Positions 1-64,000 of a stretch of 64,000 nt of DNA are shown piece after piece. Positions within the stretch are counted from its first letter, which is position 1. Each line of letters opens with the position of its first letter. The position numbers and the translations under genes were made by a program. A model generated the notes under the pieces. The model worked only from the letters and a program-made list of their open reading frames with translations. It had not been told where the DNA came from and did no database searches. The DNA comes from the human T2T-CHM13v2.0 reference genome, Homo sapiens. The stretch lies in contig CP086569.2 in NCBI GenBank assembly GCA_009914755.4, positions 28,000,001-28,064,000 of the forward strand. Reading direction: 5' to 3'.

Positions 1-440
1 CTCGAATATCATGAAACGGAATGGAATGAATTGGAACGGAATGGACTCGAATGGAATGGAATGTCATGGAATGGCATCAAATGGAATGGCATCAAATGGA
101 ATGGAATCGAATGCAATGGAATGCTATGGAATGGAATGGAATGCATTGGAATGGAATGTCCTCTAATGGAATGGATTCGAGTGGAATGGAATCGAATATA
201 ATGGAGTCGAATGAAATGGAATTGAAAGGAATGGGATCGAATACAATGGAATATACTGGAATGTAACGCAATGAACTCGAATGTAATTGACTGGAATTGA
301 ATGTACATGAATGGAATGTAATCGAATGGAAAGTAATCCAATGGAATAGAATCTAATGCAATAAAATCGACTCAGATAGAGTAGAATGTAATGGAATGGA
401 GTGCAGTGCAATGGAATGGAATGGAATGGAATGCAATGGA

Positions 441-520
441 ATGGAATGGAATGGGATGGAATGGTATGGAATGGAATGGAATGGAATGGAATGGGATGGA
501 ATGGTATGGAATGGATAGTA
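441..520 (+). repeat. 40-bp (8-pentamer) tandem duplication that defines the 3574-bp HOR variant. This is the representative copy; the same duplication is present in units 1 and 3-8.
   Basis: The sequence 'atggaatggaatgggatggaatggtatggaatgg...' occurs twice in succession. Units 2 and 9-19 have a single copy, which accounts exactly for the 3574 versus 3534 length difference. Confidence 0.85.
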
Positions 521-721
521 ATGGACTGGAATGAAGTGGACAGGAAAGGAATGGACTCAAATTGAAAGGGCTCGAAAGGAATGGAGTCAAATGGAATGGT
601 CTGGAATGGAATGAACACGAATGTAATGCAATCCAATAGAATGGAATCGAATGGCATGGAATATAAAGAAATGGAATCGAAGAGAATGGAAACAAACGGA
701 ATGGAATTGAATGGAATGGAA

Positions 722-875
722 TTGAATGGAATGGGAACGAATGGAGTAAAATTGTATGCAGTAGAAGAGAATAGAATGGAATGCAAGCGAAAGGAAAGGA
801 ATGGATTGGAATGGAATGGAATTCATTGGAATGGAAGGGAATGTAGTGTAATGGACAGGCCTGGAATAAAGTGGA
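722..875 (+). other. 154-bp segment flanked by sequences matching, from my memory, the widely used DYZ1 Y-specific PCR primers. It is present in every full-length unit.
   Basis: 'ttgaatggaatgggaacgaatgg' lies at 722-744. 'ggacaggcctggaataaagtgga', the reverse complement of TCCACTTTATTCCAGGCCTGTCC, lies at 853-875. The span is 154 bp. The primer sequences are recalled, not looked up. Confidence 0.6.
858..861. other. GGCC (HaeIII) site, one per full-length HOR unit. This is the representative copy.
   Basis: The site lies in the context 'atggacaggcctggaataaag'. By offset arithmetic it falls at 858, 4402, 7961, 11535, 15109, 18683, 22257, 25831, 29364, 32898, 36431, 41809, 45343, 48872, 52406, 55940, 59474 and 63008. 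There is none in truncated unit 12. I saw no other GGCC in the window by eye. Confidence 0.8.
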
Positions 876-3574
876 ATGCTACGGTCTCGAATGGAATAAA
901 AATGTATGGAATGGAATGCAATGAAACGGAATCGAATGTCATAGAATGTAATGGAATGCAAAAAAATGGACTCCGAAATCATTGACTGGAAAGGCTGGGT
1001 GTCGAAAGGAATTGACTCCAATGGAATGGAATCGAATGGAATGGAAGTGAATAGAATCGAACTAAATCGAATGGAATGGAATTGATAGGAACGGAATGGA
1101 AAGGAATGAAATGATTTGGCATGGAATGGAATCGAATGGCATCGAATGGAATGGAATGGAATGCAATGCAATGGAATGTATTAGAATGTAATGAACTTTA
1201 ATGGAATGTACTCGAATGGATTCGACTGGAATGGAATGTTCTGGAAGTGAATGGACTCCAATGGAATGGATTGAAAAGGAATGGAATCGTACGGAATGGA
1301 ATCTAATGGAATGGAATTAAATGGAAATGAATCAAATTGAATAGCACGGAATTGAATTGAATGGAATCGAATGCAATGGAATCTAATGAAACGGAAAGGA
1401 AAGGAATGGAATGGAATGGAATGGGCTGGAATGGAAAGGAATCGAAACGAATGGAATGGAATCGAACTGAAGAGACTGGAATGGAATGCACTGGAATGGA
1501 AGGGAGTGTAATGGAAGGTTCTCGAAAAAAATGGAATCGAATGGAATGGAATTGAATGGAACGGAATAGAGTCGAATGGAATTGAATGGAATGGAATGGA
1601 CTAGAGTGAAATGGAATCGAACCACAAGGAATGGACAGGAATAGAATGGTCTCGAATTGAATGGAATCGTATGGAATGGCATCAAACGGAATGGAATGGA
1701 CAGCCACGGAATGGAATGCACTCGAATGCAATGGAGTCGAAACTAATGGACTGGAATAGAATGGACTCGACTGGTACGGACTCCAATGGAATGGAATCGA
1801 ATGGAAGGGAATCGAACGGAATGGACTCGAAGGGAAAAGACTGCAATGGAAAGGTCTCGAATGGAATGGAAATTAATGGAATGGAATGGAATCGAATGAA
1901 ATGGAGTCAAAAGGAATGGAATCGAATGGCAAGAAATCGAATGTAATGGAATCGCAAGGAATTGATGTGAACGGAACGGAATGGAATGGAATCCAAAGAA
2001 ATGGAATAGAATGGAATGGAATCGAATGGAAAGAACTCGAATGGAAATCACTCGAATAGAATGCAATTTAATAAAATAGGATGAAATGTAATGGAATGGA
2101 ATGGAAAGGAATCGAAACGAAAGGAATGGAGACAGATGGAATGGAATGGAACAGAGAGCAATGGTATAGAATGGAATGGAATCATCTGGAATGGAATTGA
2201 ATGGAATGGAATAATATGAAATGGAATGGAATGGAATGGAATGCCCTTGAATTAAATGGACTGGAATGGAATGGACTCGAACAGAGTGGAATGGAAAGTG
2301 TTGAGATAGAATGGAATGGACTCCTTTGGAATGGTCTAGTATGCAATGCAATGGACTGGCAGGGAATCAAAAGGAATGTAATCGAATGGATTGGACTGGA
2401 ATGCAATGGACTCGAATAGATTGGAAACGGAATGCAAAGGAATGGAATGGAATAGTATGGAATGGAATGGAAAGGAATGGAGTGGAATAGACTAGAGTGG
2501 AATGGAATGGACTCGAAAGCAATGGACTGGAATGGAACTTTCTTGAATGGACTGGAATCAAACGGAATGGAATGCAATGCAATCAAATGGCATGGAATAA
2601 AATAGAATGAAAGAGAATCAAATGGAATTGAATCGAATGGAATCGAATGGATTGGAAAGGAATAGAATGGAATGGAATGGAATTGACTCAAATGGAATGG
2701 ACTAGAATGGAATGGATTCGAATGGAAGGCAAAGGAATGGAATCTATTGGAATGGACTGCAATGGAATGGAATGGAAGGGATTGGAATGGACTCGAATGG
2801 AATAGACTGCAATAGAAAGGATTCGAATGGAATGAAAAAGAATTGAATGGAATAGAACAGAATGGAATCAAATCGAATGAAATGGAATGGAATAGAAAGG
2901 AATGGAATGAAATGGAATGGAAAGGATTCGAATGGAATGCAATCGAATGGAATGGAATCGAACGGAATGGAATAAAATGGAAGCAAACTGGCAAGAAATG
3001 GAATCGAAATGAATGGAGTGTTATGGAACGGACTCCAAAGGAATTGAATGTAATAGAATGGAGTGGAGTGGACTCGAATATAATGGACTGCAATGGAATG
3101 AAATCACATGGAATGGGAACGAATGGAATGGAATGGAAAGGAATGGAATCGAATGGAAAGGAATCGAATGGAAGGGAATGAAATTGAATCAACAGGAATG
3201 GAAGGGAATAGAATAGACGGTAATGGAATGGACTCGAATAGAATGGACACGAATGCTCAAATTGAATGGACTCGAATGGAATGGAAACGAAAGGAATGTC
3301 ATCGAATGGAATTGAATCGATTGGAATAAAATCGCATAGAATAGAGTGGAATCAAATGGAATTGAATCGAAAGGAAAGGAAGCGAATGGACTGAAATGAA
3401 ATGGAATGGAATTGAATGGAAAGTAAAGCAATGGAATAGAATGGAACAAAATTTCACGGAATGGAATCAAACTGAATGGAATCAAATCAATGGAATCTAA
3501 TCAAATGGAATGGAAAGGAATTGAATGGAGTAGATGGGATTGGATGGGATTGGAATGAAATGTACTGGAAAGGA

Positions 3575-6500
3575 CTCGAATTTCATGAAACGGAATGGAA
3601 TGAATTGGAACGGAATGGACTCGAATGGAATGGAATGTCATGGAATGGCATCAAATGGAATGGCATCAAATGGAATGGAATCGAATGCAATGGAATGCTA
3701 TGGAATGGAATGGAATGCATTGGAATGGAATGTCCTCTAATGGAATGGATTCGAGTGGAATGGAATCGAATATAATGGAGTCGAATGAAATGGAATTGAA
3801 AGGAATGGGATCGAATACAATGGAATATACTGGAATGTAATGTAATGAACTCGAATGTAATTGACTGGAATGGAATGTACATGAATGGAATGTAATCGAA
3901 TGGAAAGTAATCCAATGGAATAGAATTTAATGCAATAAAATCGACTCAGATAGAGTAGAATGTAATGGAATGGAGTGCAGTGCAATGGAATGGAATGGAA
4001 TGGAATGGAATGGAATGGAATGGAATGGAATGGAATGGGATGGAATGGTATGGAATGGATAGTAATGGACTGGAGTGAAATGGACTGGAAAGGAATAGAC
4101 TCAAATTGAAAGGGCTCGAAAGGAATGGAGTCAAATGGAATGGTCTGGAATGGAATGAACACGAATGTAATGCAATCCAATAGAATGGAATCGAATGGCA
4201 TGGAATATAAAGAAATGGAATCGAAGAGAATGGAAACAAACGGAATGGAATTGAATGGAATGGAATTGAATGGAATGGGAACGAATGGAGTGAAATTGTA
4301 TGCAGTAGAAGAGAATAGAATGCAATGCAAGCGAAAGGAAAGGAATGGATTGGAATGGAATGGAATTCATTGGAATGGAAGGGAATGTAGTGTAATGGAC
4401 AGGCCTGGAATAAAGTGGAATGCTACGGTCTCGAATGGAATAAAAATGTATGGAATGGAATGCAATGAAACGGAATCGAATGTCATAGAATGTAATGGAA
4501 TGCAAAAAAATGGACTCCAAAATCATTGACTGGAAAGGCTGGGTGTCGAAAGGAATTGACTCCAATGGAATGGAATCGAATGGAATGGAAGTGAATAGAA
4601 TCGAACTAAATCGAATGGAATGGAATTGATAGGAACGGAATGGAAAGGAATGAAATGATTTGGCATGGAATGGAATCGAATGGCATCGAATGGAATGGAA
4701 TGGAATGCAATGCAATGGAATGTATTAGAATGTAATGAACTTTAATGGAATGTACTCGAATGGATTCGACTGGAATGGAATGTTCTGGAAGTGAATGGAC
4801 TCCAATGGAATGGATTGAAAAGGAATGGAATCGTACGGAATGGAATCTAATGGAATGGAATTAAATGGAAATGAATCAAATTGAACAGCACGGAATTGAA
4901 TTGAATGGAATCGAATGCAATGGAATCTAATGAAACGGAAAGTAAAGGAATGGAATGGAATGGAATGGGCTGGAATGGAAAGGAATCGAAAGGAATGGAA
5001 TGGAATCGAACTGAGGAGACTGGAATGGAATGCACTTCAACGGAAGGGAGTGTAATGGAAGGTTCTCGAAAAAAATGGAAACGAATGCAATGGAATTGAA
5101 TGGAACGGTATAGAGTCGAATGGAATTGAATGGAATGGAATGGACTAGAGTGAAATGGAATCGAACCACAAGGAATGGACAGGAATAGAATGGTCTCGAA
5201 TTGAATGGAATCGTATGGAATGGCATCAAACGGAATGGAATGGACAGCCACGGAATGGAATGCACTCGAATGCAATGGAGTCGAAACTAATGGACTGGAA
5301 TAGAATGGACTCGACTGGTATGGACTCCAATGGAATGGAATCGAATGGAAGGGAATCGAACGGAATGGACTCGAAGGGAAAAGACTGCAATGGAAAGGTC
5401 TCGAATGGAATGGAAATTAATGGAATGGAATGGAATCGAATGAAATGGAGTCAAAAGGAATGGAATTGAATGGCAAGAAATCGAATGTAATGGAATCACA
5501 AGGAATTGATGTGAACGGAATGGAATGGAATGGAATCCAAAGGAATGGAATAGAATGGAATGGAATCGAATGGAAAGGACTCGAATGGAAATCACTCGAA
5601 TAGAATGCAATTTAATAAAATAGGATGAAATGTAATGGAATGGAATGGAAAGGAATCGAAACGAAAGGAATGGAGACAGATGGAATGGAATGGAACAGAG
5701 AGCAATGGTATAGAATGGAATGGAATCATCTGGAATGGAATTGAATGGAATGGAATAATATGAAATGGAATGGAATGGAATGGAATGCCCTTGAATTAAA
5801 TGGACTGGAATGGAATGGACTCGAACAGAGTGGAATGGAAAGTGTTGAGATAGAATGGAATGGACTCCTTTGGAATGGTCTAGTATGCAATGCAATGGAC
5901 TGGCAGGGAATCAAAAGGAATGTAATCGAATGGATTGGACTGGAATGCAATGGACTCGAATAGATTGGAAACGGAATGCAAAGGAATGGAATGGAATAGT
6001 ATGGAATGGAATGGAAAGGAATGGAGTGGAATAGACTAGAGTGGAATGGAATGGACTGGAAAGCAATGGACTGGAATGGAACTTTCTTGAATGGACTGGA
6101 ATCAAACGGAATGGAATGCAATGCAATCAAATGGCATGGAATAAAATAGAATGAAAGAGAATCAAATGGAATTGAATCGAATGGAATCGAATGGATTGGA
6201 AAGGAATAGAATGGAATGGAATGGAATTGACTCAAATGGAATGGACTAGAATGGAATGGATTCGAATGGAAGGCAAAGGAATGGAATCTATCGGAATGGA
6301 CAGCAATGGAATGGAAAGGAAGGGATTGGAATGGACTCGAATGGAATGGACTGCAATAGAAAGGATTCGAATGGAATGAAAAAGAATTGAATGGAATAGA
6401 ACAGAATGGAATCAAATCGAATGAAATGGAATGGAATAGAAAGGAATGGAATGAAATGGAATGGAAAGGATTCGAATGGAATGGAATCGAACGGAATGGA

Positions 6501-7103
6501 ATAAAATGGAAGCAAACTGGCAAGAAATGGAATCGAAATGAATGGAGTGTTATGGAACGGACTCAAAAGGAATTGAATGTAATAGAATGGAGTGGAGTGG
6601 ACTCGAATATAATGGACTGGAATGGAATGAAATCACATGGAATGGGAACGAATGGAATTGAATGGAAAGGAATGGAATCGAATGGAAAGGAATCGAATGG
6701 AAGGGAATGAAATTGAATCAACAGGAATGGAAGGGAATAGAATAGACGGTAATGGAATGGACTCGAATAGAATGGACACGAATGCTCAAATTGAATGGAC
6801 TCGAATGGAATGGAAACGAAAGGAATGTCATCGAATGGAATTGAATCGATTGGAATGAAATGGCATAGAATGGAGTGGAATCAAATGGAATTGAATCGAA
6901 AGGAAAGGAAGCGAATGGACTGAAATGAAATGGAATGGAATTGAATGGAAAGTAAAGCAATGGAATAGAATGGAACGAAATTTCACGGAATGGTATCAAA
7001 CTGAATGGAATCAAATCAATGGAATATAATCAAATGGAATGGAAAGGAATTGAATGGAGTAGATGGGATTGGATGGGATTGGAATGAAATGTACTGGAAA
7101 GGA
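3575..7103 (+). repeat. HOR unit 2, 3529 bp, an outlier short variant inside the 3574-bp block.
   Basis: It lacks the 40-bp duplication. It has a longer pure (ggaat)n run at about 3975-4030. It lacks 15 bp, 'aatgcaatcgaatgg', at about 6478 when compared with about 2935-2950 in unit 1. Confidence 0.9.
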
Positions 7104-10100
7104 CTCGAATTTCATGAAACGGAATGGAATGAATTGGAACGGAATGGACTCGAATGGAATGGAATGTCATGGAATGGCATCAAATGGAATGGCATCAAAT
7201 GGAATGGAATCGAATGCAATGGAATGCTATGGAATGGAATGGAATGCATTGGAATGGAATGTCCTCTAATGGAATGGATTCGAGTGGAATGGAATCGAAT
7301 ATAATGGAGTCGAATGAAATGGAATTGAAAGGAATGGGATCGAATACAATGGAATATACTGGAATGTAACGTAATGAACTCGAATGTAATTGACTGGAAT
7401 GGAATGTACATGAATGGAATGTAATCAAATGGAAAGTAATCCAATGGAATAGAATCTAATGCAATAAAATCGACTCAGATAGAGTAGAATGTAATGGAAT
7501 GGAGTGCAGTGCAATGGAATGGAATGGAATGGAATGCAATGGAATGGAATGGAATGGGATGGAATGGTATGGAATGGAATGGAATGGAATGGAATGGGAT
7601 GGAATGGTATGGAATGGATAGTAATGGATTGGAATGAAGTGGACAGGAAAGGAATGGACTCAAATTGAAAGGGCTCGAAAGGAATGGAGTCAAATGGAAT
7701 GGTCTGGAATGGAATGAACACGAATGTAATGCAATCCAATAGAATGGAATCGAATGGCATGGAATATAAAGAAATGGAATCGAAGAGAATGGAAACAAAC
7801 GGAATGGAATTGAATGGAATGGAATTGAATGGAATGGGAACGAATGGAGTGAAATTGTATGCAGTAGAAGAGAATAGAATGGAATGCAAGCGAAAGGAAA
7901 GGAATGGATTGGAATGGAATGGAATTCATTGGAATGGAAGGGAATGTAGTGTAATGGACAGGCCTGGAATAAAGTGGAATGCTACGGTCTCGAATGGAAT
8001 AAAAATGTATGGAATGGAATGCAATGAAACGGAATCGAATGTCATAGAATGTAATGGAATGCAAAAAAATGGACTCCGAAATCATTGACTGGAAAGGCTG
8101 GGTGTCGAAAGGAATTGACTCCAATGGAATGGAATCGAATGGAATGGAAGTGAATAGAATCGAACTAAATCGAATGGAATGGAATTGATAGGAACGGAAT
8201 GGAAAGGAATGAAATGATTTGGCATGGAATGGAATCGAATGGCATCGAATGGAATGGAATGGAATGCAATGCAATGGAATGTATTAGAATGTAATGAACT
8301 TTAATGGAATGTACTCGAATGGATTCGACTGGAATGGAATGTTCTGGAAGTGAATGGACTCCAATGGAATGGATTGAAAAGGAATGGAATCGTACGGAAT
8401 GGAATCTAATGGAATGGAATTAAATGGAAATGAATGAAATTGAATAGCACGGAATTGAATTGAATGGAATCGAATGCAATGGAATCTAATGAAACGGAAA
8501 GAAAAGGAATGGAATGGAATGGAATGGGCTGGAATGGAAAGGAATCGAAACGAATGGAATGGAATCGAACTGAGGAGACTGGAATGGAATGCACTTCAAC
8601 GGAAGGGAGTGTAATGGAAGGTTCTCGAAAAAAATGGAAACGAATGGAATGGAATTGAATGGAACGGAATAGAGTCGAATGGAATTGAATGGAATGGAAT
8701 GGACTAGAGTGAAATGGAATCGAACCACAAGGAATGGACAGGAATAGAATGGTCTCGAATTGAATGGAATCGTATGGAATGGCATCAAACGGAATGGAAT
8801 GGACAGCCACGGAATGGAATGCACTCGAATGCAATGGAGTCGAAACTAATGGACTGGAATAGAATGGACTCGACTGGTACGGACTCCAATGGAATGGAAT
8901 CGAATGGAAGGGAATCGAACGCAATGGACTCGAAGGGAAAAGACTGCAATGGAAAGGTCTCGAATGGAATGGAAATTAATGGAATGGAATGGAATCGAAT
9001 GAAATGGAGTCAAAAGGAATGGAATTGAATGGCAAGAAATCGAATGTAATGGAATCACAAGGAATTGATGTGAACGGAACGGAATGGAATGGAATCCAAA
9101 GGAATGGAATAGAATGGAATGGAATCGAATGGAAAGGACTCGAATGGAAATCACTCGAATAGAATGCAATTTAATAAAATAGGATGAAATGTAATGGAAT
9201 GGAATGGAAAGGAATCGAAACGAAAGGAATGGAGACAGATGGAATGGAATGGAACAGAGAGCAATGGTATAGAATGGAATGGAATCATCTGGAATGGAAT
9301 TGAATGGAATGGAATAATATGAAATGGAATGGAATGGAATGGAATGCCCTTGAATTAAATGGACTGGAATGGAATGGACTCGAACAGAGTGGAATGGAAA
9401 GTGTTGAGATAGAATGGAATGGACTCCTTTGGAATGGTCTAGTATGCAATGCAATGGACTGGCAGGGAATCAAAAGGAATGTAATCGAATGGATTGGACT
9501 GGAATGCAATGGACTCGAATAGATTGGAAACGGAATGCAAAGGAATGGAATGGAATAGTATGGAATGGAATGGAAAGGAATGGAGTGGAATAGACTAGAG
9601 TGGAATGGAATGGACTCGAAAGCAATGGACTGGAATGGAACTTTCTTGAATGGACTGGAATCAAACGGAATGGAATGCAATGCAATCAAATGGCATGGAA
9701 TAAAATAGAATGAAAGAGAATCAAATGGAATTGAATCGAATGGAATCGAATGGATTGGAAAGGAATAGAATGGAATGGAATGGAATTGACTCAAATGGAA
9801 TGGACTAGAATGGAATGGATTCGAATGGAAGGCAAAGGAATGGAATCTATTGGAATGGACAGCAATGGAATGGAAAGGAAGGGATTGGAATGGACTCGAA
9901 TGGAATGGACTGCAATAGAAACGATTCGAATGGAATGAAAAAGAATTGAATGGAATAGAACAGAATGGAATCAAATCGAATGAAATGGAATGGAATAGAA
10001 AGGAATGGAATGAAATGGAATGGAAAGGATTCGAATGGAATGCAATCGAATGGAATGGAATCGAACGGAATGGAATAAAATGGAAGAAAACTGGCAAGAA

Positions 10101-10677
10101 ATGGAATCGAAATGAATGGAGTGTTATGGAACGGACTCCAAAGGAATTGAATGTAATAGAATGGAGTGGAGTGGACTCGAATATAATGGACTGGAATGGA
10201 ATGAAATCACATGGAATGGGAACGAATGGAATGGAATGGAAAGGAATGGAATCGAATGGAAAGGAATCGAATGGAAGGGAATGAAATTGAATCAACAGGA
10301 ATGGAAGGGAATAGAATAGACGGTAATGGAATGGACTCGAATAGAATGGACACGAATGCTCAAATTGAATGGACTCGAATGGAATGGAAACGAAAGGAAT
10401 GTCATCGAATGGAATTGAATCGATTGGAATGAAATGGCATAGAATGGAGTGGAATCAAATGGAATTGAATCGAAAGGAAAGGAAGCGAATGGACTGAAAT
10501 GAAATGGAATGGAATTGAATGGAAAGGAAAGCAATGGAATAGAATGGAACGAAATTTCACGGAATGGAATCAAACTGAATGGAATCAAATCAATGGAATA
10601 TAATCAAATGGAATGGAAAGGAATTGAATGGAGTAGATGGGATTGGATGGGATTGGAATGAAATGTACTGGAAAGGA
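7104..10677 (+). repeat. HOR unit 3, 3574 bp (long variant).
   Basis: Landmark spacing is 3574 bp. The 40-bp duplication lies at about 7545-7625. Confidence 0.9.
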
Positions 10678-13600: not shown

Positions 13601-14251
13601 GGATTCGAATGGAATGCAATCGAATGGAATGGAATCAAACGGAATGGAATAAAATGGAAGCAAACTGGCAAGAAATGGAATCGAAATGAATGGAGTGTTA
13701 TGGAACGGACTCAAAAGGAATTGAATGTAATAGAATGGAGTGGAGTGGACTCGAATATAATGGACTGGAATGGAATGAAATCACATGGAATGGGAACGAA
13801 TGGAATGGAATGGAAAGGAATGGAATCGAATGGAAAGGAATCGAATGGAAGGGAATGAAATTGAATCAACAGGAATGGAAGGGAATAGAATAGACGGTAA
13901 AGGAATGGACTCGAATAGAATGGACACGAATGCTCAAATTGAATGGACTCGAATGGAATGGAAACGAAAGGAATGTCATCGAATGGAATTGAATCGATTG
14001 GAATGAAATCGCATAGAATGGAGTGGAATCAAATGGAATTGAATCGAAAGGAAAGGAAGCGAATGGACTGAAATGAAATGGAATGGAATTGAATGGAAAG
14101 TAAAGCAATGGAATAGAATGGAACGAAATTTCACGGAATGGTATCAAACTGAATGGAATCAAATCAATGGAATATAATCAAATGGAATGGAAAGGAATTG
14201 AATGGAGTAGATGGGATTGGATGGGATTGGAATGAAATGTACTGGAAAGGA
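10678..14251 (+). repeat. HOR unit 4, 3574 bp (long variant).
   Basis: Landmark spacing is 3574 bp. It is near-identical to units 3 and 5. Confidence 0.9.
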
Positions 14252-47500: not shown

Positions 47501-48059
47501 GAGTGTTATGGAACGGACTCCAAAGGAATTGAATGTAATAGAATGGAGTGGAGTGGACTCGAATATAATGGACTGGAATGGAATGAAATCACATGGAATG
47601 GGAACGAATGGAATGGAATGGAAAGGAATGGAATCGAATGGAAAGGAATCGAATGGAAGGGAATGAAATTGAATCAACAGGAATGGAAGGGAATAGAATA
47701 GACGGTAATGGAATGGACTCGAATAGAATGGACACGAATGCTCAAATTGAATGGACTCGAATGGAATGGAAACGAAAGGAAAGTCAACAAATGGAATTGA
47801 ATCGATTGGAATGAAATCGCATAGAATGGAGTGGAATCAAATGGAATTGAATCGAAAGGAAAGGAAGCGAATGGACTGAAATGAAATGGAATGGAATTGA
47901 ATGGAAAGTAAAGCAATGGAATAGAATGGAACGAAATTTCACGGAATGGAATCAAACTGAATGGAATCAAATCAATGGAATATAATCAAATGGAATGGAA
48001 AGGAATTGAATGGAGTAGATGGGATTGGATGGGATTGGAATGAAATGTACTGGAAAGGA
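44526..48059 (+). repeat. HOR unit 14, 3534 bp (short variant).
   Basis: Landmark spacing is 3534 bp. Confidence 0.9.
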
Positions 48060-51000: not shown

Positions 51001-51588
51001 ACTGGCAAGAAATGGAATCGAAATGAATGGATTGTTATGGAACGGACTCCAAAGGAATTGAATGTAATAGAATGGAGTGGAGTGGACTCGAATATAATGG
51101 ACTGGAATGGAATGAAATCACATGGAATGGGAACGAATGGAATGGAATGGAAAGGAATGGAATCGAATGGAAAGGAATCGAATGGAAGGGAATGAAATTG
51201 AATCAACAGGAATGGAAGGGAATAGAATAGACGGTAATGGAATGGACTCGAATAGAATGGACACGAATGCTCAAATTGAATGGACTCGAATGGAATGGAA
51301 ACGAAAGGAATGTCATCGAATGGAATTGAATCGATTGGAATGAAATCGCATAGAATGGAGTGGAATCAAATGGAATTGAATCGAAAGGAAAGGAAGCGAA
51401 TGGACTGAAATGAAATGGAATGGAATTGAATGGAAAGTAAAGCAATGGAATAGAATGGAACGAAATTTCACGGAATGGAATCAAACTGAATGGAATCAAA
51501 TCAATGGAATATAATCAAATGGAATGGAAAGGAATTGAATGGAGTAGATGGGATTGGATGGGATTGGAATGAAATGTACTGGAAAGGA
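48060..51588 (+). repeat. HOR unit 15, 3529 bp (short variant with a 15-bp deletion and a 10-bp expansion).
   Basis: It has one copy rather than two of 'ggcatcaaatggaat' at about 48125-48140. It has two extra ggaat pentamers at about 48470-48500. Confidence 0.9.
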
Positions 51589-54500: not shown

Positions 54501-56367
54501 TGGAATCGAACGGAATGGAATAAAATGGAAGAAAACTGGCAAGAAATGGAATCGAAATGAATGGAGTGTTATGGAACGGACTCCAAAGGAATTGAATGTA
54601 ATAGAATGGAGTGGAGTGGACTCGAATATAATGGACTGGAATGGAATGAAATCACATGGAATGGGAACGAATGGAATGGAATGGAAAGGAATGGAATCGA
54701 ATGGAAAGGAATCGAATGGAAGGGAATGAAATTGAATCAACAGGAATGGAAGGGAATAGAATAGACGGTAATGGAATGGACTCGAATAGAATGGACACGA
54801 ATGCTCAAATTGAATGGACTCGAATGGAATGGAAACGAAAGGAATGTCATGGAATGGAATTGAATCGATTGGAATGAAATGGCATAGAATGGAGTGGAAT
54901 CAAATGGAATTGAATCGAAAGGAAAGGAAGCGAATGGACTGAAATGAAATGGAATGGAATTGAATGGAAAGTAAAGCAATGGAATAGAATGGAACGAAAT
55001 TTCACGGAATGGAATCAAACTGAATGGAATCAAATCAATGGAATATAATCAAATGGAATGGAAAGGAATTGAATGGAGTAGATGGGATTGGATGGGATTG
55101 GAATGAAATGTACTGGAAAGGACTCGAATTTCATGAAACGGAATGGAATGAATTGGAACGGAATGGACTCGAATGGAATGGAATGTCATGGAATGGCATC
55201 AAATGGAATAGCATCAAATGGAATGGAATCGAATGCAATGGAATGCTATGGAATGGAATGGAATGCATTGGAATGGAATGTCCTCTAATGGAATGGATTC
55301 GAGTGGAATGGAATCGAATATAATGGAGTCGAATGAAATGGAATTGAAAGGAATGGGATCGAATACAATGGAATATACTGGAATGTAATGTAATGAACTC
55401 GAATGTAATTGACTGGAATGGAATGTACATGAATGGAATGTAATCGAATGGAAAGTAATCCAATGGAATAGAATCTAATGCAATAAAATCGACTCAGATA
55501 GAGTAGAATGTAATGGAATGGAGTGCAGTGCAATGGAATGGAATGGAATGGAATGCAATGGAATGGAATGGAATGGGATGGAATGGTATGGAATGGATAG
55601 TAATGGACTGGAGTGAAATGGACTGGAAAGGAATGGACTCAAATTGAAAGGGCTCGAAAGGAATGGAGTCAAATGGAATGGTCTGGAATGGAATGAACAC
55701 GAATGTAATGCAATCCAATAGAATGGAATCGAATGGCATGGAATATAAAGAAATGGAATCGAAGAGAATGGAAACAAACGGAATGGAATTGAATGGAATG
55801 GAATTGAATGGAATGGGAACGAATGGAGTGAAATTGTATGCAGTAGAAGAGAATAGAATGGAATGCAAGCGAAAGGAAAGGAATGGATTGGAATGGAATG
55901 GAATTCATGAGAATGGAAGGGAATGTAGTTTAATGGACAGGCCTGGAATAAAGTGGAATGCTACGGTCTCGAATGGAATAAAAATGTATGGAATGGAATG
56001 CAAAGAAACGGAATCGAATGTCATAGAATGTAATGGAATGCAAAAAAATGGACTCCAAAATCATTGACTGGAAAGGCTGGGTGTCGAAAGGAATTGACTC
56101 CAATGGAATGGAATCGAATGGAATGGAAGTGAATAGAATCGAACTAAATCGAATGGAATGGAATTGATAGGAACGGAATGGAAAGGAATGAAATGATTTG
56201 GCATGGAATGGAATCGAATGGCATCGAATGGAATGGAATGGAATGCAATGCAATGGAATGTATTAGAATGTAATGAACTTTAATGGAATGTACTCGAATG
56301 GATTCGACTGGAATGGAATGTTCTGGAAGTGAATGGACTCCAATGGAATGGATTCAAAAGGAATGGA
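49300..56367 (+). repeat. Copy A of a 7068-bp two-unit super-repeat. Boundaries are approximate.
   Basis: Unit-specific variant patterns across about 49.3-56.4 kb recur at +7068 bp in about 56.4-63.4 kb. These include 'IHENGRECSLMDRPG' against 'IHGNG', 'KKTGKKW', 'EWIVMERT', 'ECHGMELNRLE', 'HLMLFH', 'AIFSL' and 'HCSPFH'. Translated ORF pairs at 7068-bp spacing match. Confidence 0.75.
51589..55122 (+). repeat. HOR unit 16, 3534 bp (short variant).
   Basis: Landmark spacing is 3534 bp. Confidence 0.9.
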
Positions 56368-58656
56368 ATCGTACGGAATGGAATCTAATGGAATGGAATT
56401 AAATGGAAATGAATGAAATTGAATAGCACGGAATTGAATTGAATGGAATCGAATGCAATGGAATCTAATGAAACGGAAAGGAAAGGAATGGAATGGAATG
56501 GAATGGGCTGGAATGGAAAGGAATCGAAACGAATGGAATGGAATCGAACTGAAGAGACTGGAATGGAATGCACTGGAATGGAAGGGAGTGTAATGGAAGG
56601 TTCTCGAAAAAAATGGAATCGAATGGAATGGAATTGAATGGAACGGAATAGAGTCGAATGGAATTGAATGGAATGGAATGGACTAGAGTGAAATGGAATC
56701 GAACCACAAGGAATGGACAGGAATAGAATGGTCTCGAATTGAATGGAATCGTATGGAATGGCATCAAACGGAATGGAATGGACAGCCACGGAATGGAATG
56801 CACTCGAATGCAATGGAGTCGAAACTAATGGACTGGAATAGAATGGACTCGACTGGTACGGACTCCAATGGAATGGAATCGAATGGAAGGGAATCGAACG
56901 GAATGGACTCGAAGGGAAAAGATTGCAATGGAAAGGTCTCGAATGGAATGGAAATTAATGGAATGGAATGGAATCGAATGAAATGGAGTCAAAAGGAATG
57001 GAATCGAATGGCAAGAAATCGAATGTAATGGAATCGCAAGGAATTGATGTGAACGGAACGGAATGGAATGGAATCCAAAGAAATGGAATAGAATGGAATG
57101 GAATCGAATGGAAAGAACTCGAATGGAAATCACTCGAATAGAATGCAATTTAATAAAATAGGATGAAATGTAATGGAATGGAATGGAAAGGAATCGAAAT
57201 GAAAGGAATGGAGACAGATGGAATGGAATGGAACAGAGAGCAATGGTATAGAATGGAATGGAATCATCTGGAATGGAATTGAATGGAATGGAATAATATG
57301 AAATGGAATGGAATGGAATGGAATGCCCTTGAATTAAATGGACTGGAATGGAATGGACTCGAACAGAGTGGAATGGAAAGTGTTGAGATAGAATGGAATG
57401 GACTCCTTTGGAATGGTCTAGTATGCAATGCAATGGACTGGCAGGGAATCAAAAGGAATGTAATCGAATGGATTGGACTGGAATGCAATGGACTCGAATA
57501 GATTGGAAACGGAATGCAAAGGAATGGAATGGAATAGTATGGAATGGAATGGAAAGGAATGGAGTGGAATAGACTAGAGTGGAATGGAATGGACTCGAAA
57601 GCAATGGACTGGAATGGAACTTTCTTGAATGGACTGGAATCAAACGGAATGGAATGCAATGCAATCAAATGGCATGGAATAAAATAGAATGAAAGAGAAT
57701 CAAATGGAATTGAATCGAATGGAATCGAATGGATTGGAAAGGAATAGAATGGAATGGAATGGAATTGACTCAAATGGAATGGACTACAATGGAATGGATT
57801 CGAATGGAAGGCAAAGGAATGGAATCTATCGGAATGGACAGCAATGGAATGGAAAGGAAGGGATTGGAATGGACTCGAATGGAATGGACTGCAATAGAAA
57901 GGATTCGAATGGAATGAAAAAGAATTGAATGGAATAGAACAGAATGGAATCAAATCGAATGAAATGGAATGGAATAGAAAGGAATGGAATGAAATGGAAT
58001 GGAAAGGATTCGAATGGAATGCAATCGAATGGAATGGAATCGAACGGAATGGAATAAAATGGAAGCAAACTGGCAAGAAATGGAATCGAAATGAATGGAT
58101 TGTTATGGAACGGACTCCAAAGGAATTGAATGTAATAGAATGGAGTGGAGTGGACTCGAATATAATGGACTGGAATGGAATGAAATCACATGGAATGGGA
58201 ACGAATGGAATGGAATGGAAAGGAATGGAATCGAATGGAAAGGAATCGAATGGAAGGGAATGAAATTGAATCAACAGGAATGGAAGGGAATAGAATAGAC
58301 GGTAATGGAATGGACTCGAATAGAATGGACACGAATGCTCAAATTGAATGGACTCGAATGGAATGGAAACGAAAGGAATGTCATCGAATGGAATTGAATC
58401 GATTGGAATGAAATCGCATAGAATGGAGTGGAATCAAATGGAATTGAATCGAAAGGAAAGGAAGCGAATGGACTGAAATGAAATGGAATGGAATTGAATG
58501 GAAAGTAAAGCAATGGAATAGAATGGAACGAAATTTCACGGAATGGAATCAAACTGAATGGAATCAAATCAATGGAATATAATCAAATGGAATGGAAAGG
58601 AATTGAATGGAGTAGATGGGATTGGATGGGATTGGAATGAAATGTACTGGAAAGGA
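55123..58656 (+). repeat. HOR unit 17, 3534 bp (short variant).
   Basis: Landmark spacing is 3534 bp. Confidence 0.9.
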
Positions 58657-61600
58657 CTCGAATTTCATGAAACGGAATGGAATGAATTGGAACGGAATGG
58701 ACTCGAATGGAATGGAATGTCATGGAATGGCATCAAATGGAATGGCATCAAATGGAATGGAATCGAATGCAATGGAATGCTATGGAATGGAATGGAATGC
58801 ATTGGAATGGAATGTCCTCTAATGGAATGGATTCGAGTGGAATGGAATCGAATATAATGGAGTCGAATGAAATGGAATTGAAAGGAATGGGATCGAATAC
58901 AATGGAATATACTGGAATGTAATGTAATGAACTCGAATGTAATTGACTGGAATGGAATGTACATGAATGGAATGTAATCGAATGGAAAGTAATCCAATGG
59001 AATAGAATCTAATGCAATAAAATCGACTCAGATAGAGTAGAATGTAATGGAATGGAGTGCAGTGCAATGGAATGGAATGGAATGGAATGCAATGGAATGG
59101 AATGGAATGGGATGGAATGGTATGGAATGGATAGTAATGGACTGGAGTGAAATGGACTGGAAAGGAATGGACTCAAATTGAAAGGGCTCGAAAGGAATGG
59201 AGTCAAATGGAATGGTCTGGAATGGAATGAACACGAATGTAATGCAATCCAATAGAATGGAATCGAATGGCATGGAATATAAAGAAATGGAATCGAAGAG
59301 AATGGAAACAAACGGAATGGAATTGAATGGAATGGAATTGAATGGAATGGGAACGAATGGAGTGAAATTGTATGCAGTAGAAGAGAATAGAATGGAATGC
59401 AAGCGAAAGGAAAGGAATGGATTGGAATGGAATGGAATTCATGGGAATGGAAGGGAATGTAGTGTAATGGACAGGCCTGGAATAAAGTGGAATGCTACGG
59501 TCTCGAATGGAATAAAAATGTATGGAATGGAATGCAAAGAAACGGAATCGAATGTCATAGAATGTAATGGAATGCAAAAAAATGGACTCCAAAATCATTG
59601 ACTGGAAAGGCTGGGTGTCGAAAGGAATTGACTCCAATGGAATGGAATCGAATGGAATGGAAGTGAATAGAATCGAACTAAATCGAATGGAATGGAATTG
59701 ATAGGAACGGAATGGAAAGGAATGAAATGATTTGGCATGGAATGGAATCGAATGGCATCGAATGGAATGGAATGGAATGGAATGCAATGGAATGTATTAG
59801 AATGTAATGAACTTTAATGGAATGTACTCGAATGGATTCGACTAGAATGGAATGTTCTGGAAGTGAATGGACTCCAATGGAATGGATTGAAAAGGAATGG
59901 AATCGTACGGAATGGAATCTAATGGAATGGAATTAAATGGAAATGAATGAAATTGAATAGCACGGAATTGAATTGAATGGAATCGAATGCAATGGAATCT
60001 AATGAAACGGAAAGGAAAGGAATGGAATGGAATGGAATGGGCTGGAATGGAAAGGAATCGAAACGAATGGAATGGAATCGAACTGAAGAGACTGGAATGG
60101 AATGCACTGGAATGGAAGGGAGTGTAATGGAAGGTTCTCGAAAAAAATGGAATCGAATGGAATGGAATTGAATGGAACGGAATAGAGTCGAATGGAATTG
60201 AATGGAATGGAATGGACTAGAGTGAAATGGAATCGAACCACAAGGAATGGACAGGAATAGAATGGTCTCGAATTGAATGGAATCGTATGGAATGGCATCA
60301 AACGGAATGGAATGGACAGCCACGGAATGGAATGCACTCGAATGCAATGGAGTCGAAACTAATGGACTGGAATAGAATGGACTCGACTGGTACGGACTCC
60401 AATGGAATGGAATCGAATGGAAGGGAATCGAACGGAATGGACTCGAAGGGAAAAGACTGCAATGGAAAGGTCTCGAATGGAATGGAAATTAATGGAATGG
60501 AATGGAATCGAATGAAATGGAGTCAAAAGGAATGGAATCGAATGGCAAGAAATCGAATGTAATGGAATCGCAAGGAATTGATGTGAACGGAACGGAATGG
60601 AATGGAATCCAAAGAAATGGAATAGAATGGAATGGAATCGAATGGAAAGAACTCGAATGGAAATCACTCGAATAGAATGCAATTTAATAAAATAGGATGA
60701 AATGTAACGGAATGGAATGGAAAGGAATCGAAACGAAAGGAATGGAGACAGATGGAATGGAATGGAACAGAGAGCAATGGTATAGAATGGAATGGAATCA
60801 TCTGGAATGGAATTGAATGGAATGGAATAATATGAAATGGAATGGAATGGAATGGAATGCCCTTGAATTAAATGGACTGGAATGGAATGGACTCGAACAG
60901 AGTGGAATGGAAAGTGTTGAGATAGAATGGAATGGACTCCTTTGGAATGGTCTAGTATGCAATGCAATGGACTGGCAGGGAATCAAAAGGAATGTAATCG
61001 AATGGATTGGACTGGAATGCAATGGACTCGAATAGATTGGAAACGGAATGCAAAGGAATGGAATGGAATAGTATGGAATGGAATGGAAAGGAATGGAGTG
61101 GAATAGACTAGAGTGGAATGGAATGGACTCGAAAGCAATGGACTGGAATGGAACTTTCTTGAATGGACTGGAATCAAACGGAATGGAATGCAATGCAATC
61201 AAATGGCATGGAATAAAATAGAATGAAAGAGAATCAAATGGAATTGAATCGAATGCAATCGAATGGATTGGAAAGGAATAGAATGGAATGGAATGGAATT
61301 GACTCAAATGGAATGGACTAGAATGGAATGGATTCGAATGGAAGGCAAAGGAATGGAATCTATCGGAATGGACAGCAATGGAATGGAAAGGAAGGGATTG
61401 GAATGGACTCGAATGGAATGGACTGCAATAGAAAGGATTCGAATGGAATGAAAAAGAATTGAATGGAATAGAACAGAATGGAATCAAATCGAATGAAATG
61501 GAATGGAATAGAAAGGAATGGAATGAAATGGAATGGAAAGGATTCGAATGGAATGCAATCGAATGGAATGGAATCGAACGGAATGGAATAAAATGGAAGA

Positions 61601-63435
61601 AAACTGGCAAGAAATGGAATCGAAATGAATGGAGTGTTATGGAACGGACTCCAAAGGAATTGAATGTAATAGAATGGAGTGGAGTGGACTCGAATATAAT
61701 GGACTGGAATGGAATGAAATCACATGGAATGGGAACGAATGGAATGGAATGGAAAGGAATGGAATCGAATGGAAAGGAATCGAATGGAAGGGAATGAAAT
61801 TGAATCAACAGGAATGGAAGGGAATAGAATAGACGGTAATGGAATGGACTCGAATAGAATGGACACGAATGCTCAAATTGAATGGACTCGAATGGAATGG
61901 AAACGAAAGGAATGTCATGGAATGGAATTGAATCGATTGGAATGAAATGGCATAGAATGGAGTGGAATCAAATGGAATTGAATCGAAAGGAAAGGAAGCG
62001 AATGGACTGAAATGAAATGGAATGGAATTGAATGGAAAGTAAAGCAATGGAATAGAATGGAACGAAATTTCACGGAATGGAATCAAACTGAATGGAATCA
62101 AATCAATGGAATATAATCAAATGGAATGGAAAGGAATTGAATGGAGTAGATGGGATTGGATGGGATTGGAATGAAATGTACTGGAAAGGACTCGAATTTC
62201 ATGAAACGGAATGGAATGAATTGGAACGGAATGGACTCGAATGGAATGGAATGTCATGGAATGGCATCAAATGGAATAGCATCAAATGGAATGGAATCGA
62301 ATGCAATGGAATGCTATGGAATGGAATGGAATGCATTGGAATGGAATGTCCTCTAATGGAATGGATTCGAGTGGAATGGAATCGAATATAATGGAGTCGA
62401 ATGAAATGGAATTGAAAGGAATGGGATCGAATACAATGGAATATACTGGAATGTAATGTAATGAACTCGAATGTAATTGACTGGAATGGAATGTACATGA
62501 ATGGAATGTAATCGAATGGAAAGTAATCCAATGGAATAGAATCTAATGCAATAAAATCGACTCAGATAGAGTAGAATGTAATGGAATGGAGTGCAGTGCA
62601 ATGGAATGGAATGGAATGGAATGCAATGGAATGGAATGGAATGGGATGGAATGGTATGGAATGGATAGTAATGGACTGGAGTGAAATGGACTGGAAAGGA
62701 ATGGACTCAAATTGAAAGGGCTCGAAAGGAATGGAGTCAAATGGAATGGTCTGGAATGGAATGAACACGAATGTAATGCAATCCAATAGAATGGAATCGA
62801 ATGGCATGGAATATAAAGAAATGGAATCGAAGAGAATGGAAACAAACGGAATGGAATTGAATGGAATGGAATTGAATGGAATGGGAACGAATGGAGTGAA
62901 ATTGTATGCAGTAGAAGAGAATAGAATGGAATGCAAGCGAAAGGAAAGGAATGGATTGGAATGGAATGGAATTCATGAGAATGGAAGGGAATGTAGTTTA
63001 ATGGACAGGCCTGGAATAAAGTGGAATGCTACGGTCTCGAATGGAATAAAAATGTATGGAATGGAATGCAAAGAAACGGAATCGAATGTCATAGAATGTA
63101 ATGGAATGCAAAAAAATGGACTCCAAAATCATTGACTGGAAAGGCTGGGTGTCGAAAGGAATTGACTCCAATGGAATGGAATCGAATGGAATGGAAGTGA
63201 ATAGAATCGAACTAAATCGAATGGAATGGAATTGATAGGAACGGAATGGAAAGGAATGAAATGATTTGGCATGGAATGGAATCGAATGGCATCGAATGGA
63301 ATGGAATGGAATGCAATGCAATGGAATGTATTAGAATGTAATGAACTTTAATGGAATGTACTCGAATGGATTCGACTGGAATGGAATGTTCTGGAAGTGA
63401 ATGGACTCCAATGGAATGGATTCAAAAGGAATGGA
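56368..63435 (+). repeat. Copy B of the 7068-bp two-unit super-repeat. Boundaries are approximate.
   Basis: See copy A. Example ORF-track pairs at exactly +7068 bp are 52135/59203, 53730/60798, 55663/62731 and 55930/62998. Confidence 0.75.
58657..62190 (+). repeat. HOR unit 18, 3534 bp (short variant).
   Basis: Landmark spacing is 3534 bp. Confidence 0.9.
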
Positions 63436-64000
63436 ATCGTACGGAATGGAATCTAATGGAATGGAATTAAATGGAAATGAATGAAATTGAATAGCACGGA
63501 ATTGAATTGAATGGAATCGAATGCAATGGAATCTAATGAAACGGAAAGGAAAGGAATGGAATGGAATGGGCTGGAATGGAAAGGAATCGAAACGAATGGA
63601 ATGGAATCGAACTGAAGAGACTGGAATGGAATGCACTGGAATGGAAGGGAGTGTAATGGAAGGTTCTCGAAAAAAATGGAATCGAATGGAATGGAATTGA
63701 ATGGAACGGAATAGAGTCGAATGGAATTGAATGGAATGGAATGGACTAGAGTGAAATGGAATCGAACCACAAGGAATGGACAGGAATAGAATGGTCTCGA
63801 ATTGAATGGAATCGTATGGAATGGCATCAAACGGAATGGAATGGACAGCCACGGAATGGAATGCACTCGAATGCAATGGAGTCGAAACTAATGGACTGGA
63901 ATAGAATGGACTCGACTGGTACGGACTCCAATGGAATGGAATCGAATGGAAGGGAATCGAACGGAATGGACTCGAAGGGAAAAGACTGCAATGGAAAGGT
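62191..64000 (+). repeat. HOR unit 19, partial (1810 bp to the window end).
   Basis: It starts at the landmark and the window ends inside the unit. It has a 5-bp (one pentamer) loss at about 63560 compared with the corresponding region at about 56490. Confidence 0.85.

What the first reader, a model, noticed from the sequence alone, without database searches (positions are those of the whole stretch)
1..64000. The whole window is a GGAAT-pentamer satellite higher-order-repeat array, most likely human Y DYZ1
Every line of the window is (ggaat)n or a degenerate derivative of it. A ~3.53-3.57 kb higher-order period is exact to the base pair across most neighbouring units. There is no interruption by unique sequence and there are no inversions. 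The purine-rich strand is + throughout. The unit length, the pentamer composition and the single HaeIII site per unit all match what is known of DYZ1, the 3.56-kb male-specific HaeIII repeat. There are no genes here, so this region should be annotated as heterochromatic satellite and not mined for ORFs.
Basis: partly seen in the sequence, partly recalled or inferred. Interest (0 to 1): 0.5.

Follow-up and report, generated by a model that had tools for sequence, protein, structure and literature searches.

The report
Human Y-chromosome DYZ1 satellite array

Summary
The observation and the interpretation both hold. The window is a single-orientation (GGAAT)n-derived satellite: GGAAT occurs 4195 times and ATTCC never. 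It holds 17 complete higher-order units plus two partial ones. HaeIII sites lie 3529-3574 bp apart, one per unit, and units are 98.7-100 % identical.

Four tests identify it as DYZ1, subfamily HSat3A6:
- A cloned human DYZ1 unit from the literature aligns HaeIII site to HaeIII site with every unit at 97.8-98.6 %. Out-of-register alignments give about 70 %.
- Eight published DYZ1 primers sit at their expected offsets.
- Of 14 published HSat2/3 subfamily marker 24-mers, only the Y marker is present (34 exact hits). The markers for 9q12, 15p, 1q12 and 16q11 have none.
- GC (38.8 %) and CpG density (1 per 34.7 bp) equal the published DYZ1 values.

All fit unequal exchange. Long ORFs are compositional artefacts. 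Placement on Yq12 could not be tested by mapping. This is already known and of low interest.

The parts
1..64000 (-). Uninterrupted DYZ1 (HSat3A6) array. The conventional DYZ1 strand (TTCCA, numbered from the HaeIII site) is the window's minus strand; the purine-rich GGAAT strand is +.
   Evidence: composition, periodicity; cloned DYZ1 aligns on the minus strand at 97.8-98.6 %; HSat3A6 marker only.
1..859 (-). Partial unit 0, cut by the window edge. It carries the undeleted (A-type) state of the variable (GGAAT)n tract at 410-449.
   Evidence: (primer B lies 797 bp from the HaeIII cut).
860..4403 (-). Unit U1, 3544 bp. B-type at 10 of 11 diagnostic substitutions, with a 30-bp deletion in the variable tract.
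4404..25832 (-). Block of A-type units U2-U7. U2 is 3559 bp, has a 15-bp deletion and is mosaic at the A/B diagnostic sites. U3-U7 are 3574 bp each, with boundaries at 7963, 11537, 15111, 18685, 22259; U5-U7 are 99.9 % identical.
   Evidence: the lag-3574 identity run 6472-23734.
25833..63009 (-). Block of B-type units U8-U17 (3533/3534/3529 bp, plus the 5378-bp U11). Compared with A-type they have a 40-bp deletion in the (GGAAT)n tract and 11 fixed substitutions. Boundaries at 29366, 32900, 36433, 41811, 45345, 48874, 52408, 55942, 59476.
37518..41205 (-). Out-of-register tandem duplication inside U11: copy 1 is 37518-39361 and copy 2 is 39362-41205, 1844 bp each. They are joined at the 8-bp microhomology AATGGAAT (39362-39369) and differ at about 10 sites.
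   Evidence: lag 1844; 99.5 % over 1874 bp; colinearity breakpoints; junction 40-mer unique in the window.
48874..63009 (-). Recent two-unit (7068 bp) duplication. U14-U15 (48874-55941) and U16-U17 (55942-63009) differ at only 2 positions (48936, 50132), whereas adjacent units differ at about 14.
63010..64000 (-). Partial unit 18, cut by the window edge.
858..861 (.). HaeIII site (GGCC), the first of 18, one per unit. The others start at 4402, 7961, 11535, 15109, 18683, 22257, 25831, 29364, 32898, 36431, 41809, 45343, 48872, 52406, 55940, 59474, 63008.
722..875 (.). 154-bp segment bounded by the primer pair TTGAATGGAATGGGAACGAATGG (+) and TCCACTTTATTCCAGGCCTGTCC (-), which I recall as a classic Y-specific DYZ1 sexing amplicon. 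It is repeated once per unit (18 times; 35 of the 36 primer sites are exact).
   Evidence: The primers' identity rests on my memory; no paper in the library holds them.

Best explanation
The window lies wholly inside one block of DYZ1, the Y-specific HSat3 subfamily HSat3A6. DYZ1 is a ~3.5-kb higher-order repeat built from degenerate TTCCA/GGAAT pentamers, and together with DYZ2 it makes up the Yq12 heterochromatin of the human Y chromosome. It is non-coding constitutive heterochromatin.

Its structure is maintained and changed by unequal exchange and gene conversion between misaligned repeat units, most likely between sister chromatids, because this region does not recombine with a homologue. 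In-register exchange spreads variants locally, which gives the blocks of 3574-bp and 3534-bp units and the near-identical two-unit duplicate. Pentamer-phase slippage gives the 15-, 30- and 40-bp indels. A rare out-of-register event at a short microhomology gave the 5378-bp unit.

Shown here: the identity with DYZ1/HSat3A6, and the variant architecture. Inferred: the Yq12 location, the heterochromatic and methylated state, and the exchange mechanism.
For: Identity:
- Full-length in-register alignment to a cloned human DYZ1 unit at 97.8-98.6 %, against about 70 % out of register.
- Eight published DYZ1 primers at their expected offsets.
- Only the HSat3A6 marker among 14 subfamily 24-mers.
- Unit length and a single HaeIII site, compared with the 3564-bp HaeIII unit (PMC3925983), the ~3.6-kb Y-specific HSat3 nested repeat (Rhie preprint) and the commonest HaeIII fragment of 3569 bp (Hallast preprint).
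- GC and CpG density equal to the published DYZ1 values.
- TTCCA counts of 221-228 and TTCGA counts of 57-62 per unit, inside the published ranges of 184-235 and 50-62.
- Independent DYZ1 copies recovered as human contaminants are up to 98.6-99.0 % identical to the window units, with HaeIII spacings of 3539-3562.

Mechanism:
- Mean identity falls with distance, from 99.45 % for neighbouring units to about 99.05 % at ten units apart.
- Variants sit in blocks, with 11 fixed differences and a mosaic boundary unit.
- The 7068-bp duplicate has 2 mismatches.
- The large indels are multiples of 5.
- The 1844-bp duplication has an 8-bp microhomology junction.
- The literature reaches the same conclusion for Yq12: unequal exchange, sister-chromatid exchanges seen in Strand-seq, and homogenisation within arrays.
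Against: No human assembly was available, so the chromosomal position was not tested directly. Altemose 2014 lists a minor chromosome 7 localisation for HSat3A6 besides Y. The window's unit lengths (3534 and 3574) are not the modal 3564/3569 bp given in the papers, although the differences are small pentamer-phase indels within documented DYZ1 variability. The reference clone was assembled from four PCR fragments, so part of the ~2 % difference may be clone or PCR error rather than real divergence. No DYZ2 flank is visible in the window.
Confidence: 0.95

Rival explanations
1. An autosomal HSat3 or HSat2 array (9q12, 15p, 1q12, 16q11 or an acrocentric short arm) that merely shares the GGAAT pentamer.
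For: All HSat2/3 arrays share the pentamer, and out-of-register alignments to DYZ1 already give about 70 % identity.
Against: The marker 24-mers of all 13 non-HSat3A6 subfamilies have 0 hits at up to 1 mismatch, while the HSat3A6 marker has 34 exact hits. A 3.5-kb HOR in register with cloned DYZ1 at ~98 % is not a generic pentamer property.
Confidence: 0.01
2. A genuine DYZ1-type (HSat3A6) array that lies off Yq12: either Yq12 heterochromatin translocated to an acrocentric short arm or another autosome, or the minor chromosome 7 site listed for HSat3A6.
For: Altemose 2014 Table 1 gives 'Y, 7' for HSat3A6. Y-autosome translocations that carry DYZ1 are reported in case reports listed by the literature search. 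Sequence alone cannot distinguish such a copy.
Against: Yq12 holds more than 20 Mb of DYZ1 in T2T-Y, so the prior overwhelmingly favours Yq12. The units are highly homogeneous (98.7-100 %) and carry very recent duplications, as expected inside a large, active array.
Confidence: 0.03
3. A related Y repeat that is not DYZ1 proper: the 2.7-kb or 3.1-kb arrays of the DYZ18 subregion, or the pericentromeric HSat3/DYZ17.
For: The 2.7-kb unit is 77 % DYZ1-derived at 97 % identity (Hallast preprint), so short DYZ1 markers could also hit it.
Against: The window units are 3529-3574 bp and align end to end with the 3564-bp DYZ1 clone, with no foreign segment. No 2.7- or 3.1-kb period appears in the lag histogram.
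Confidence: 0.01
4. A great-ape (non-human) Y or autosomal (AATGG)n satellite.
For: (AATGG)n repeats are male-biased or Y-located in other great apes as well. No ape sequence was available for comparison.
Against: Identity of about 98-99 % in HOR register to a human clone and to human contaminant copies, with the same HaeIII site and all eight human primers. Satellite HORs turn over rapidly between ape species, and Yq heterochromatin is virtually absent in chimpanzee.
Confidence: 0.01
5. A rival about function, not identity: the units are templates of a functional lncRNA (linc-SPRY3 / lnc-RAINY, the testis cDNAs of Jehan et al.) or act as a transcription-factor binding platform (TEAD/NFAT-type GGAATG motifs), rather than being inert heterochromatin.
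For: PMC11999364 reports a >3-kb lncRNA transcribed from DYZ1. A preprint reports TF-motif enrichment on HSat3, including motifs specific to HSat3A6. The window has 2211 GGAATG cores, 34.5 per kb.
Against: No lnc-RAINY sequence was available to align. There are no Rfam hits. The motif density follows automatically from the pentamer. DYZ1 is reported as constitutively hypermethylated heterochromatin. Nothing in the window marks a promoter or a transcript boundary.
Confidence: 0.15

Closest known systems
DYZ1 / HSat3A6 (human Yq12; 3.56-kb HaeIII repeat; Nakahori 1986 as cited; clones KF941192-KF941199 of PMC3925983)
   Same: Pentamer base, one HaeIII site per unit, a unit of about 3.5 kb, 97.8-98.6 % full-length in-register identity, the primer map, the HSat3A6 24-mer, GC and CpG density, TTCCA and TTCGA counts per unit, and head-to-tail single orientation.
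   Different: Only minor, expected variants: units of 3534 and 3574 bp rather than the 3564/3569 bp reference lengths, one 5378-bp unit with a 1844-bp internal duplication, and about 1.4-2.2 % difference from the one clone compared.
HSat3B5 (9q12) and other autosomal HSat3/HSat2 subfamilies (Altemose 2014)
   Same: The ancestral GGAAT/CATTC pentamer, purine/pyrimidine strand asymmetry, and megabase heterochromatic arrays.
   Different: Their subfamily marker 24-mers are absent, and the window has the DYZ1 3.5-kb HOR, which those arrays do not share.
2.7-kb DYZ18-subregion repeat (Hallast et al.)
   Same: It is partly DYZ1-derived, with 77 % of the unit at 97 % identity to DYZ1.
   Different: Unit length is 2.7 kb with a DYZ18-derived part. 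The window units are full-length DYZ1.
DYZ2 / HSat1B
   Same: It is the partner satellite that alternates with DYZ1 blocks in Yq12.
   Different: It is unrelated in sequence (AT-rich, ~2.4 kb, with an Alu fragment, 24 % GC). None is present in the window, where GC is uniformly 38-40 %.

Membership tests
DYZ1 / HSat3A6 | Built from tandem TTCCA/GGAAT pentamers and their derivatives, in a single orientation | tested here: met
   4195 GGAAT and 0 ATTCC; lag-5 self-match 0.64; 72.8 % of bases in GGAAT with at most 1 mismatch. TTCCA counts of 221-228 per unit against the published 184-235.
DYZ1 / HSat3A6 | Higher-order unit of about 3.5-3.6 kb released by a single HaeIII site | tested here: met
   18 GGCC sites; 16 of 17 spacings are 3529-3574 bp and one is 5378 bp. 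Published: 3564 bp, ~3.6 kb, 3569 bp modal.
DYZ1 / HSat3A6 | Full-length, in-register sequence identity to a cloned DYZ1 unit | tested here: met
   97.8-98.6 % over positions 1-3564 for each of the 16 normal-length units; about 70 % out of register.
DYZ1 / HSat3A6 | Published DYZ1 primer sites in the published order and at the published positions | tested here: met
   All 8 primers of PMC3925983 Table 5 match with at most 1 error, about once per unit (15-19 hits each). Their offsets from the HaeIII cut agree with the table to within the known indels.
DYZ1 / HSat3A6 | Presence of the HSat3A6-specific 24-mer and absence of the other subfamilies' 24-mers | tested here: met
   34 exact hits for HSat3A6; 0 hits at up to 1 mismatch for the 13 others. 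Only one marker per subfamily was available, out of 2,696 for HSat3A6.
DYZ1 / HSat3A6 | Base composition of about 38 % GC and about 1 CpG per 35 bp | tested here: met
   38.8 % GC and 1 CpG per 34.7 bp, against the Hallast preprint values.
DYZ1 / HSat3A6 | Male-specific, located in Yq12 | not testable with these tools
   No human assembly and no male/female read sets were available. This is inferred from the documented Y specificity of the subfamily.
DYZ1 / HSat3A6 | Blocks alternate with DYZ2 (HSat1B) arrays | not testable with these tools
   The window (64 kb) is smaller than most DYZ1 blocks (50 kb-3.6 Mb) and contains no boundary.
Autosomal HSat3 (e.g. HSat3B5 at 9q12, HSat3A5 at 15) and HSat2 (1q12, 16q11) | Subfamily-specific 24-mers of Altemose 2014 Table 1 | tested here: not met
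   0 exact or 1-mismatch hits for every one.
2.7-kb / 3.1-kb DYZ18-subregion repeats | Unit length of 2.7 or 3.1 kb with a DYZ18-derived segment | tested here: not met
   No such period appears, and the units are colinear with DYZ1 over their full length.
Protein-coding or structured-RNA gene | A conserved ORF with a recognisable domain, or an Rfam family match | tested here: not met
   All ORFs of at least 150 aa are on the minus strand, start with TTG, and vary in length between units. The translation is a pentapeptide-periodic FHSIP-like repeat. The only Pfam hits are far below the curated cut-offs: 28 against 105 bits and 24 against 38 bits. Rfam gives 0 matches.

The most novel reading that the evidence does not exclude
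The evidence does not exclude that these DYZ1 units are more than inert heterochromatin. They could be among the copies that template the reported lnc-RAINY / linc-SPRY3 lncRNA, or could act as a TEAD/NFAT-type binding platform. Alternatively, this particular array, with its 3534/3574 sub-variants and its 5378-bp unit, could lie off Yq12 on an autosome. None of these readings is supported by anything specific in the window.
Probability: 0.08. Interest if true: 0.3.

Novelty: already known. Interest (0 to 1): 0.07.

Why it matters
In practice the region should be annotated or masked as HSat3A6/DYZ1 satellite and kept out of gene or ORF mining. Its stop-poor minus strand yields ORFs of up to 482 aa by composition alone. 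The same repeat is present as human contamination in contigs deposited as bacterial genomes and in metagenomes, where such ORFs can turn into spurious proteins. Biologically, the window is a clean small-scale example of how Yq12 evolves: variant blocks, a two-unit duplicate with 2 differences, pentamer-phase indels, and one out-of-register duplication. This adds nothing beyond what the T2T-Y and population Y-assembly studies already describe.

Tried and rejected
- Literature support for the 154-bp primer pair. Three searches with different spellings found no paper that holds the primers. Their exact 18-fold match is therefore reported, but the claim that they are 'Y-specific sexing primers' rests on my memory only. 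I replaced it with the eight primers and the clone sequence of PMC3925983.
- Nakahori 1986 (PMC311781) and Jehan 2007 (PMC1832090) are not held.
- The lnc-RAINY paper has no supplement held and no sequences in its text, so the link to the lncRNA could not be tested.
- Provenance probe. The unique U11 junction 40-mer is absent from viral contigs, genome contigs and metagenome contigs, so the window is not a contig from those collections. Its source assembly remains unknown.
- Rfam at gathering threshold gave no matches.
- Pfam on the longest ORFs gave only sub-threshold low-complexity hits, Extensin_1 and Pentapeptide_4. I rejected these as artefacts of translating a 5-nt repeat.
- Autosomal HSat3/HSat2, the 2.7-kb DYZ18-side repeat and an ape origin were considered and rejected, as listed under the rival explanations.
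- I did not run the expensive protein-database, structure-prediction or homologue searches, because nothing in the window warrants them.

Full report
**1. The observation**

Reading the first 3 kb shows degenerate GGAAT pentamers throughout.
- GGAAT occurs 4195 times on the + strand, and its reverse complement ATTCC never occurs.
- GC skew is +0.54 to +0.61 and GC is 38-40 % in every 2-kb window.
- TRF reports one array covering 18-63996.
- Self-match at lag 5 is 0.64, against 0.11-0.33 at neighbouring lags. No 100-bp window drops below 0.43. The longest stretch without a GGAAT at up to 1 mismatch is 30 bp.

So there is no inversion and no unique-sequence interruption.

The 20-mer lag histogram is dominated by 3534 (18801 k-mers) and 3574 (15306). 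GGCC (HaeIII) occurs 18 times, once per unit, with spacings of 3544, 3559, 3574 x5, 3533, 3534, 3533, 5378, 3534, 3529 and 3534 x4. The 17 complete units are 98.7-100 % identical.

**2. Identity**

No human assembly is available among the tools, so I used sequence markers taken from papers.

(a) Primers. PMC3925983 (Yadav et al. 2014) lists eight primers for the 3564-bp DYZ1 HaeIII unit, with coordinates. All eight match the window with at most one error, about once per unit. Their distances from the HaeIII cut on the window's minus strand agree with the table to within the small indels described below. Examples: primer C at 1668-1685 against 1670-1715 observed, primer D at 2564-2583 against 2563-2608, primer E at 861-880 against 850-895.

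(b) A cloned unit. The paper's Additional file 1 gives complete cloned DYZ1 units. I transcribed MZT1a blood (3564 bp, KF941192 according to the paper) and aligned it with BLAST. Each normal-length unit aligns over positions 1-3564 of the clone, HaeIII site to HaeIII site, at 97.8-98.6 % on the minus strand. Every out-of-register alignment is about 70 %. This separates identity at the level of the higher-order repeat from generic pentamer similarity.

(c) Subfamily markers. Altemose et al. 2014 (PMC4022460) classify HSat2/3 into 14 subfamilies. They equate HSat3A6 with DYZ1 on the Y and print one diagnostic 24-mer per subfamily. Only the HSat3A6 24-mer is present, with 34 exact hits, about two per unit, the same as in the clone. 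The other 13 have no hit even with one mismatch. They include HSat3B5 (chr 9), HSat3A5 (chr 15), HSat2A2 (chr 1) and HSat2B (chr 16).

(d) Composition. GC is 38.8 % with one CpG per 34.7 bp, which equals the DYZ1 values of Hallast et al. (38 %, 1 per 35 bp). TTCCA counts of 221-228 and TTCGA counts of 57-62 per normal unit lie inside the published ranges of 184-235 and 50-62.

(e) A recalled primer pair. The pair TCCACTTTATTCCAGGCCTGTCC / TTGAATGGAATGGGAACGAATGG, which I recall as a classic Y-sexing pair, matches 18 times each. It brackets 154 bp across the HaeIII site. No paper in the library contains these primers, so this point rests on my memory.

**3. Independent copies and provenance**

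The 40-mer across the U11 duplication junction is unique in the window. It is absent from the viral, bacterial/archaeal genome and metagenome collections, so the window is not one of their contigs.

A generic 23-mer across the DYZ1 HaeIII site finds 6 contigs deposited as bacterial genomes (for example Actinomadura cremea JCM 3308 BMRF01000076.1, 3637 bp) and 33 metagenome stretches, one of them labelled human gut. It finds none in viral contigs. The best of these are 98.6-99.0 % identical to the window units, and where two sites are present the spacings are 3539-3562 bp. They are independent human DYZ1 copies. Their presence in microbial records is the contamination already described by Rhie et al..

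**4.

Two unit variants are arranged in blocks.
- A-type: U2-U7 at 4404-25832 (3574 bp; U2 is 3559 bp with a 15-bp deletion).
- B-type: U8-U17 at 25833-63009 (3534 bp).
- They differ by a 40-bp indel in a pure (GGAAT)n tract and by 11 fixed substitutions.
- U1 is B-like at 10 of the 11 sites and has a 30-bp deletion in the same tract. U2 is mosaic. The left partial unit has the undeleted tract.
- The indels are 15, 30 or 40 bp, that is, in pentamer phase. The exceptions are two 1-bp deletions, in U8 and U10.

Mean identity declines from 99.45 % between neighbouring units to about 99.05 % at ten units apart.

U14-U15 and U16-U17 (7068 bp each) differ at 2 positions, whereas adjacent units differ at about 14. 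This is a very recent two-unit duplication.

U11 (36433-41810, 5378 bp) follows a normal unit for 2937 bp from its left end and for 2449 bp from its right end. It therefore contains a 1844-bp out-of-register tandem duplication (37518-39361 and 39362-41205). The copies are joined within the 8-bp microhomology AATGGAAT and differ at about 10 sites.

**5. Mechanism**

These patterns are what unequal exchange and gene conversion between misaligned units produce: local variant blocks, multi-unit duplicates, in-phase indels and a rare out-of-register junction. Rhie et al. conclude the same for Yq12, citing iterative tandem duplications, unequal exchange, and sister-chromatid exchanges in about 15 % of Strand-seq libraries. 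Hallast et al. describe homogenisation within arrays. A 2026 preprint reports that Yq12 carries most de novo Y variants, some of them consistent with gene conversion.

The variant architecture is shown here. The exchange mechanism, the heterochromatic and methylated state, and the Yq12 position are inferred from the literature.

**6. Genes**

All 65 ORFs of at least 150 aa lie on the minus strand, start with TTG, recur with the unit, and change length between units (336, 270, 265 and 482 aa). The minus strand has only about 1.5 stops per 100 codons, for compositional reasons. The translation is a pentapeptide-periodic FHSIP-like repeat. The only Pfam hits are low-complexity matches far below the curated cut-offs, and Rfam finds nothing.

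'No genes' is therefore correct for coding and structured-RNA genes. The caveat is that lncRNAs (linc-SPRY3 / lnc-RAINY, and Jehan's testis cDNAs) are reported to be transcribed from DYZ1 (PMC11999364). HSat3, including HSat3A6, has also been proposed as a transcription-factor binding platform; the window has 34.5 GGAATG cores per kb. No transcript sequence was available to test the lncRNA link.

**7. Verdict**

The finding is a correct identification of a long-known element. My confidence that this is DYZ1/HSat3A6 is about 0.95. The residual doubt is whether this particular copy lies in Yq12, which needs mapping to a Y assembly. Novelty: already known. Interest: low.

Noticed in passing
L001-L006 (genome contigs), e.g. 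L001 = BMRF01000076.1 Actinomadura cremea JCM 3308, 3637 bp; L006 = CAYVXY010000078.1 Polyangiaceae MAG, 3604 bp: Contigs deposited as bacterial genomes or MAGs are DYZ1 units, 97-99 % identical to the window. Several are about 3.6 kb, which is one collapsed unit. This is human male DNA contamination, a phenomenon Rhie et al. already reported for HSat3/HSat1B.
   Followed up: partly
L010/L011 (BNJT01001888.1, 55.5 kb contig), L019/L027/L033 (BNJU01… contigs of 52-55 kb), L029: Long metagenome contigs carry multi-unit DYZ1-like arrays. HaeIII spacings are 3558, 3562, 3539, 3553 and 3559; in L027 they are 3454 and 3458, at only about 90 % identity. Long-read metagenome assemblies therefore contain tens of kb of human Y satellite, including a more diverged variant.
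   Followed up: partly
L016, L037 (about 74-75 % identity), L012, L013, L028, L036 (82-88 %): These loci hold the exact 23-mer across the DYZ1 HaeIII site but are otherwise much more diverged from the window units. They may be peripheral or older DYZ1 copies, or related HSat3 repeats such as those on the DYZ18 side. They were not classified.
   Followed up: no
L035 (2392 bp), L014, L019: Only part of each locus aligns to DYZ1 (for example 680 of 2392 bp in L035), and the rest has several GGCC sites and few pentamers. These may be DYZ1 block boundaries or chimeric contigs.
   Followed up: no
window 36433-41810 (U11), junction 39362-39369: This is the one 5378-bp unit. It contains a 1844-bp out-of-register tandem duplication joined at the 8-bp microhomology AATGGAAT. 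Its junction 40-mer is a unique tag for locating this window in a Y assembly.
   Followed up: yes
window 48874-63009: A two-unit (7068-bp) block is duplicated with only 2 differences (at 48936 and 50132), which is far closer than adjacent units are to each other.
   Followed up: yes
window minus strand, e.g. 26716-28164, 9285-10295: The stop-poor TTCCA strand yields ORFs of up to 482 aa. They translate to a pentapeptide-periodic FHSIP-like repeat and give weak sub-threshold Pfam hits (Pentapeptide_4, Extensin_1). In contaminated microbial assemblies these could be called as hypothetical proteins.
   Followed up: partly
window 25833-29365 (U8) and 32900-36432 (U10): Two units are 3533 bp because of single-base deletions. 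These are the only indels not in pentamer phase, and they could be real variants or homopolymer-type sequencing or assembly errors.
   Followed up: no
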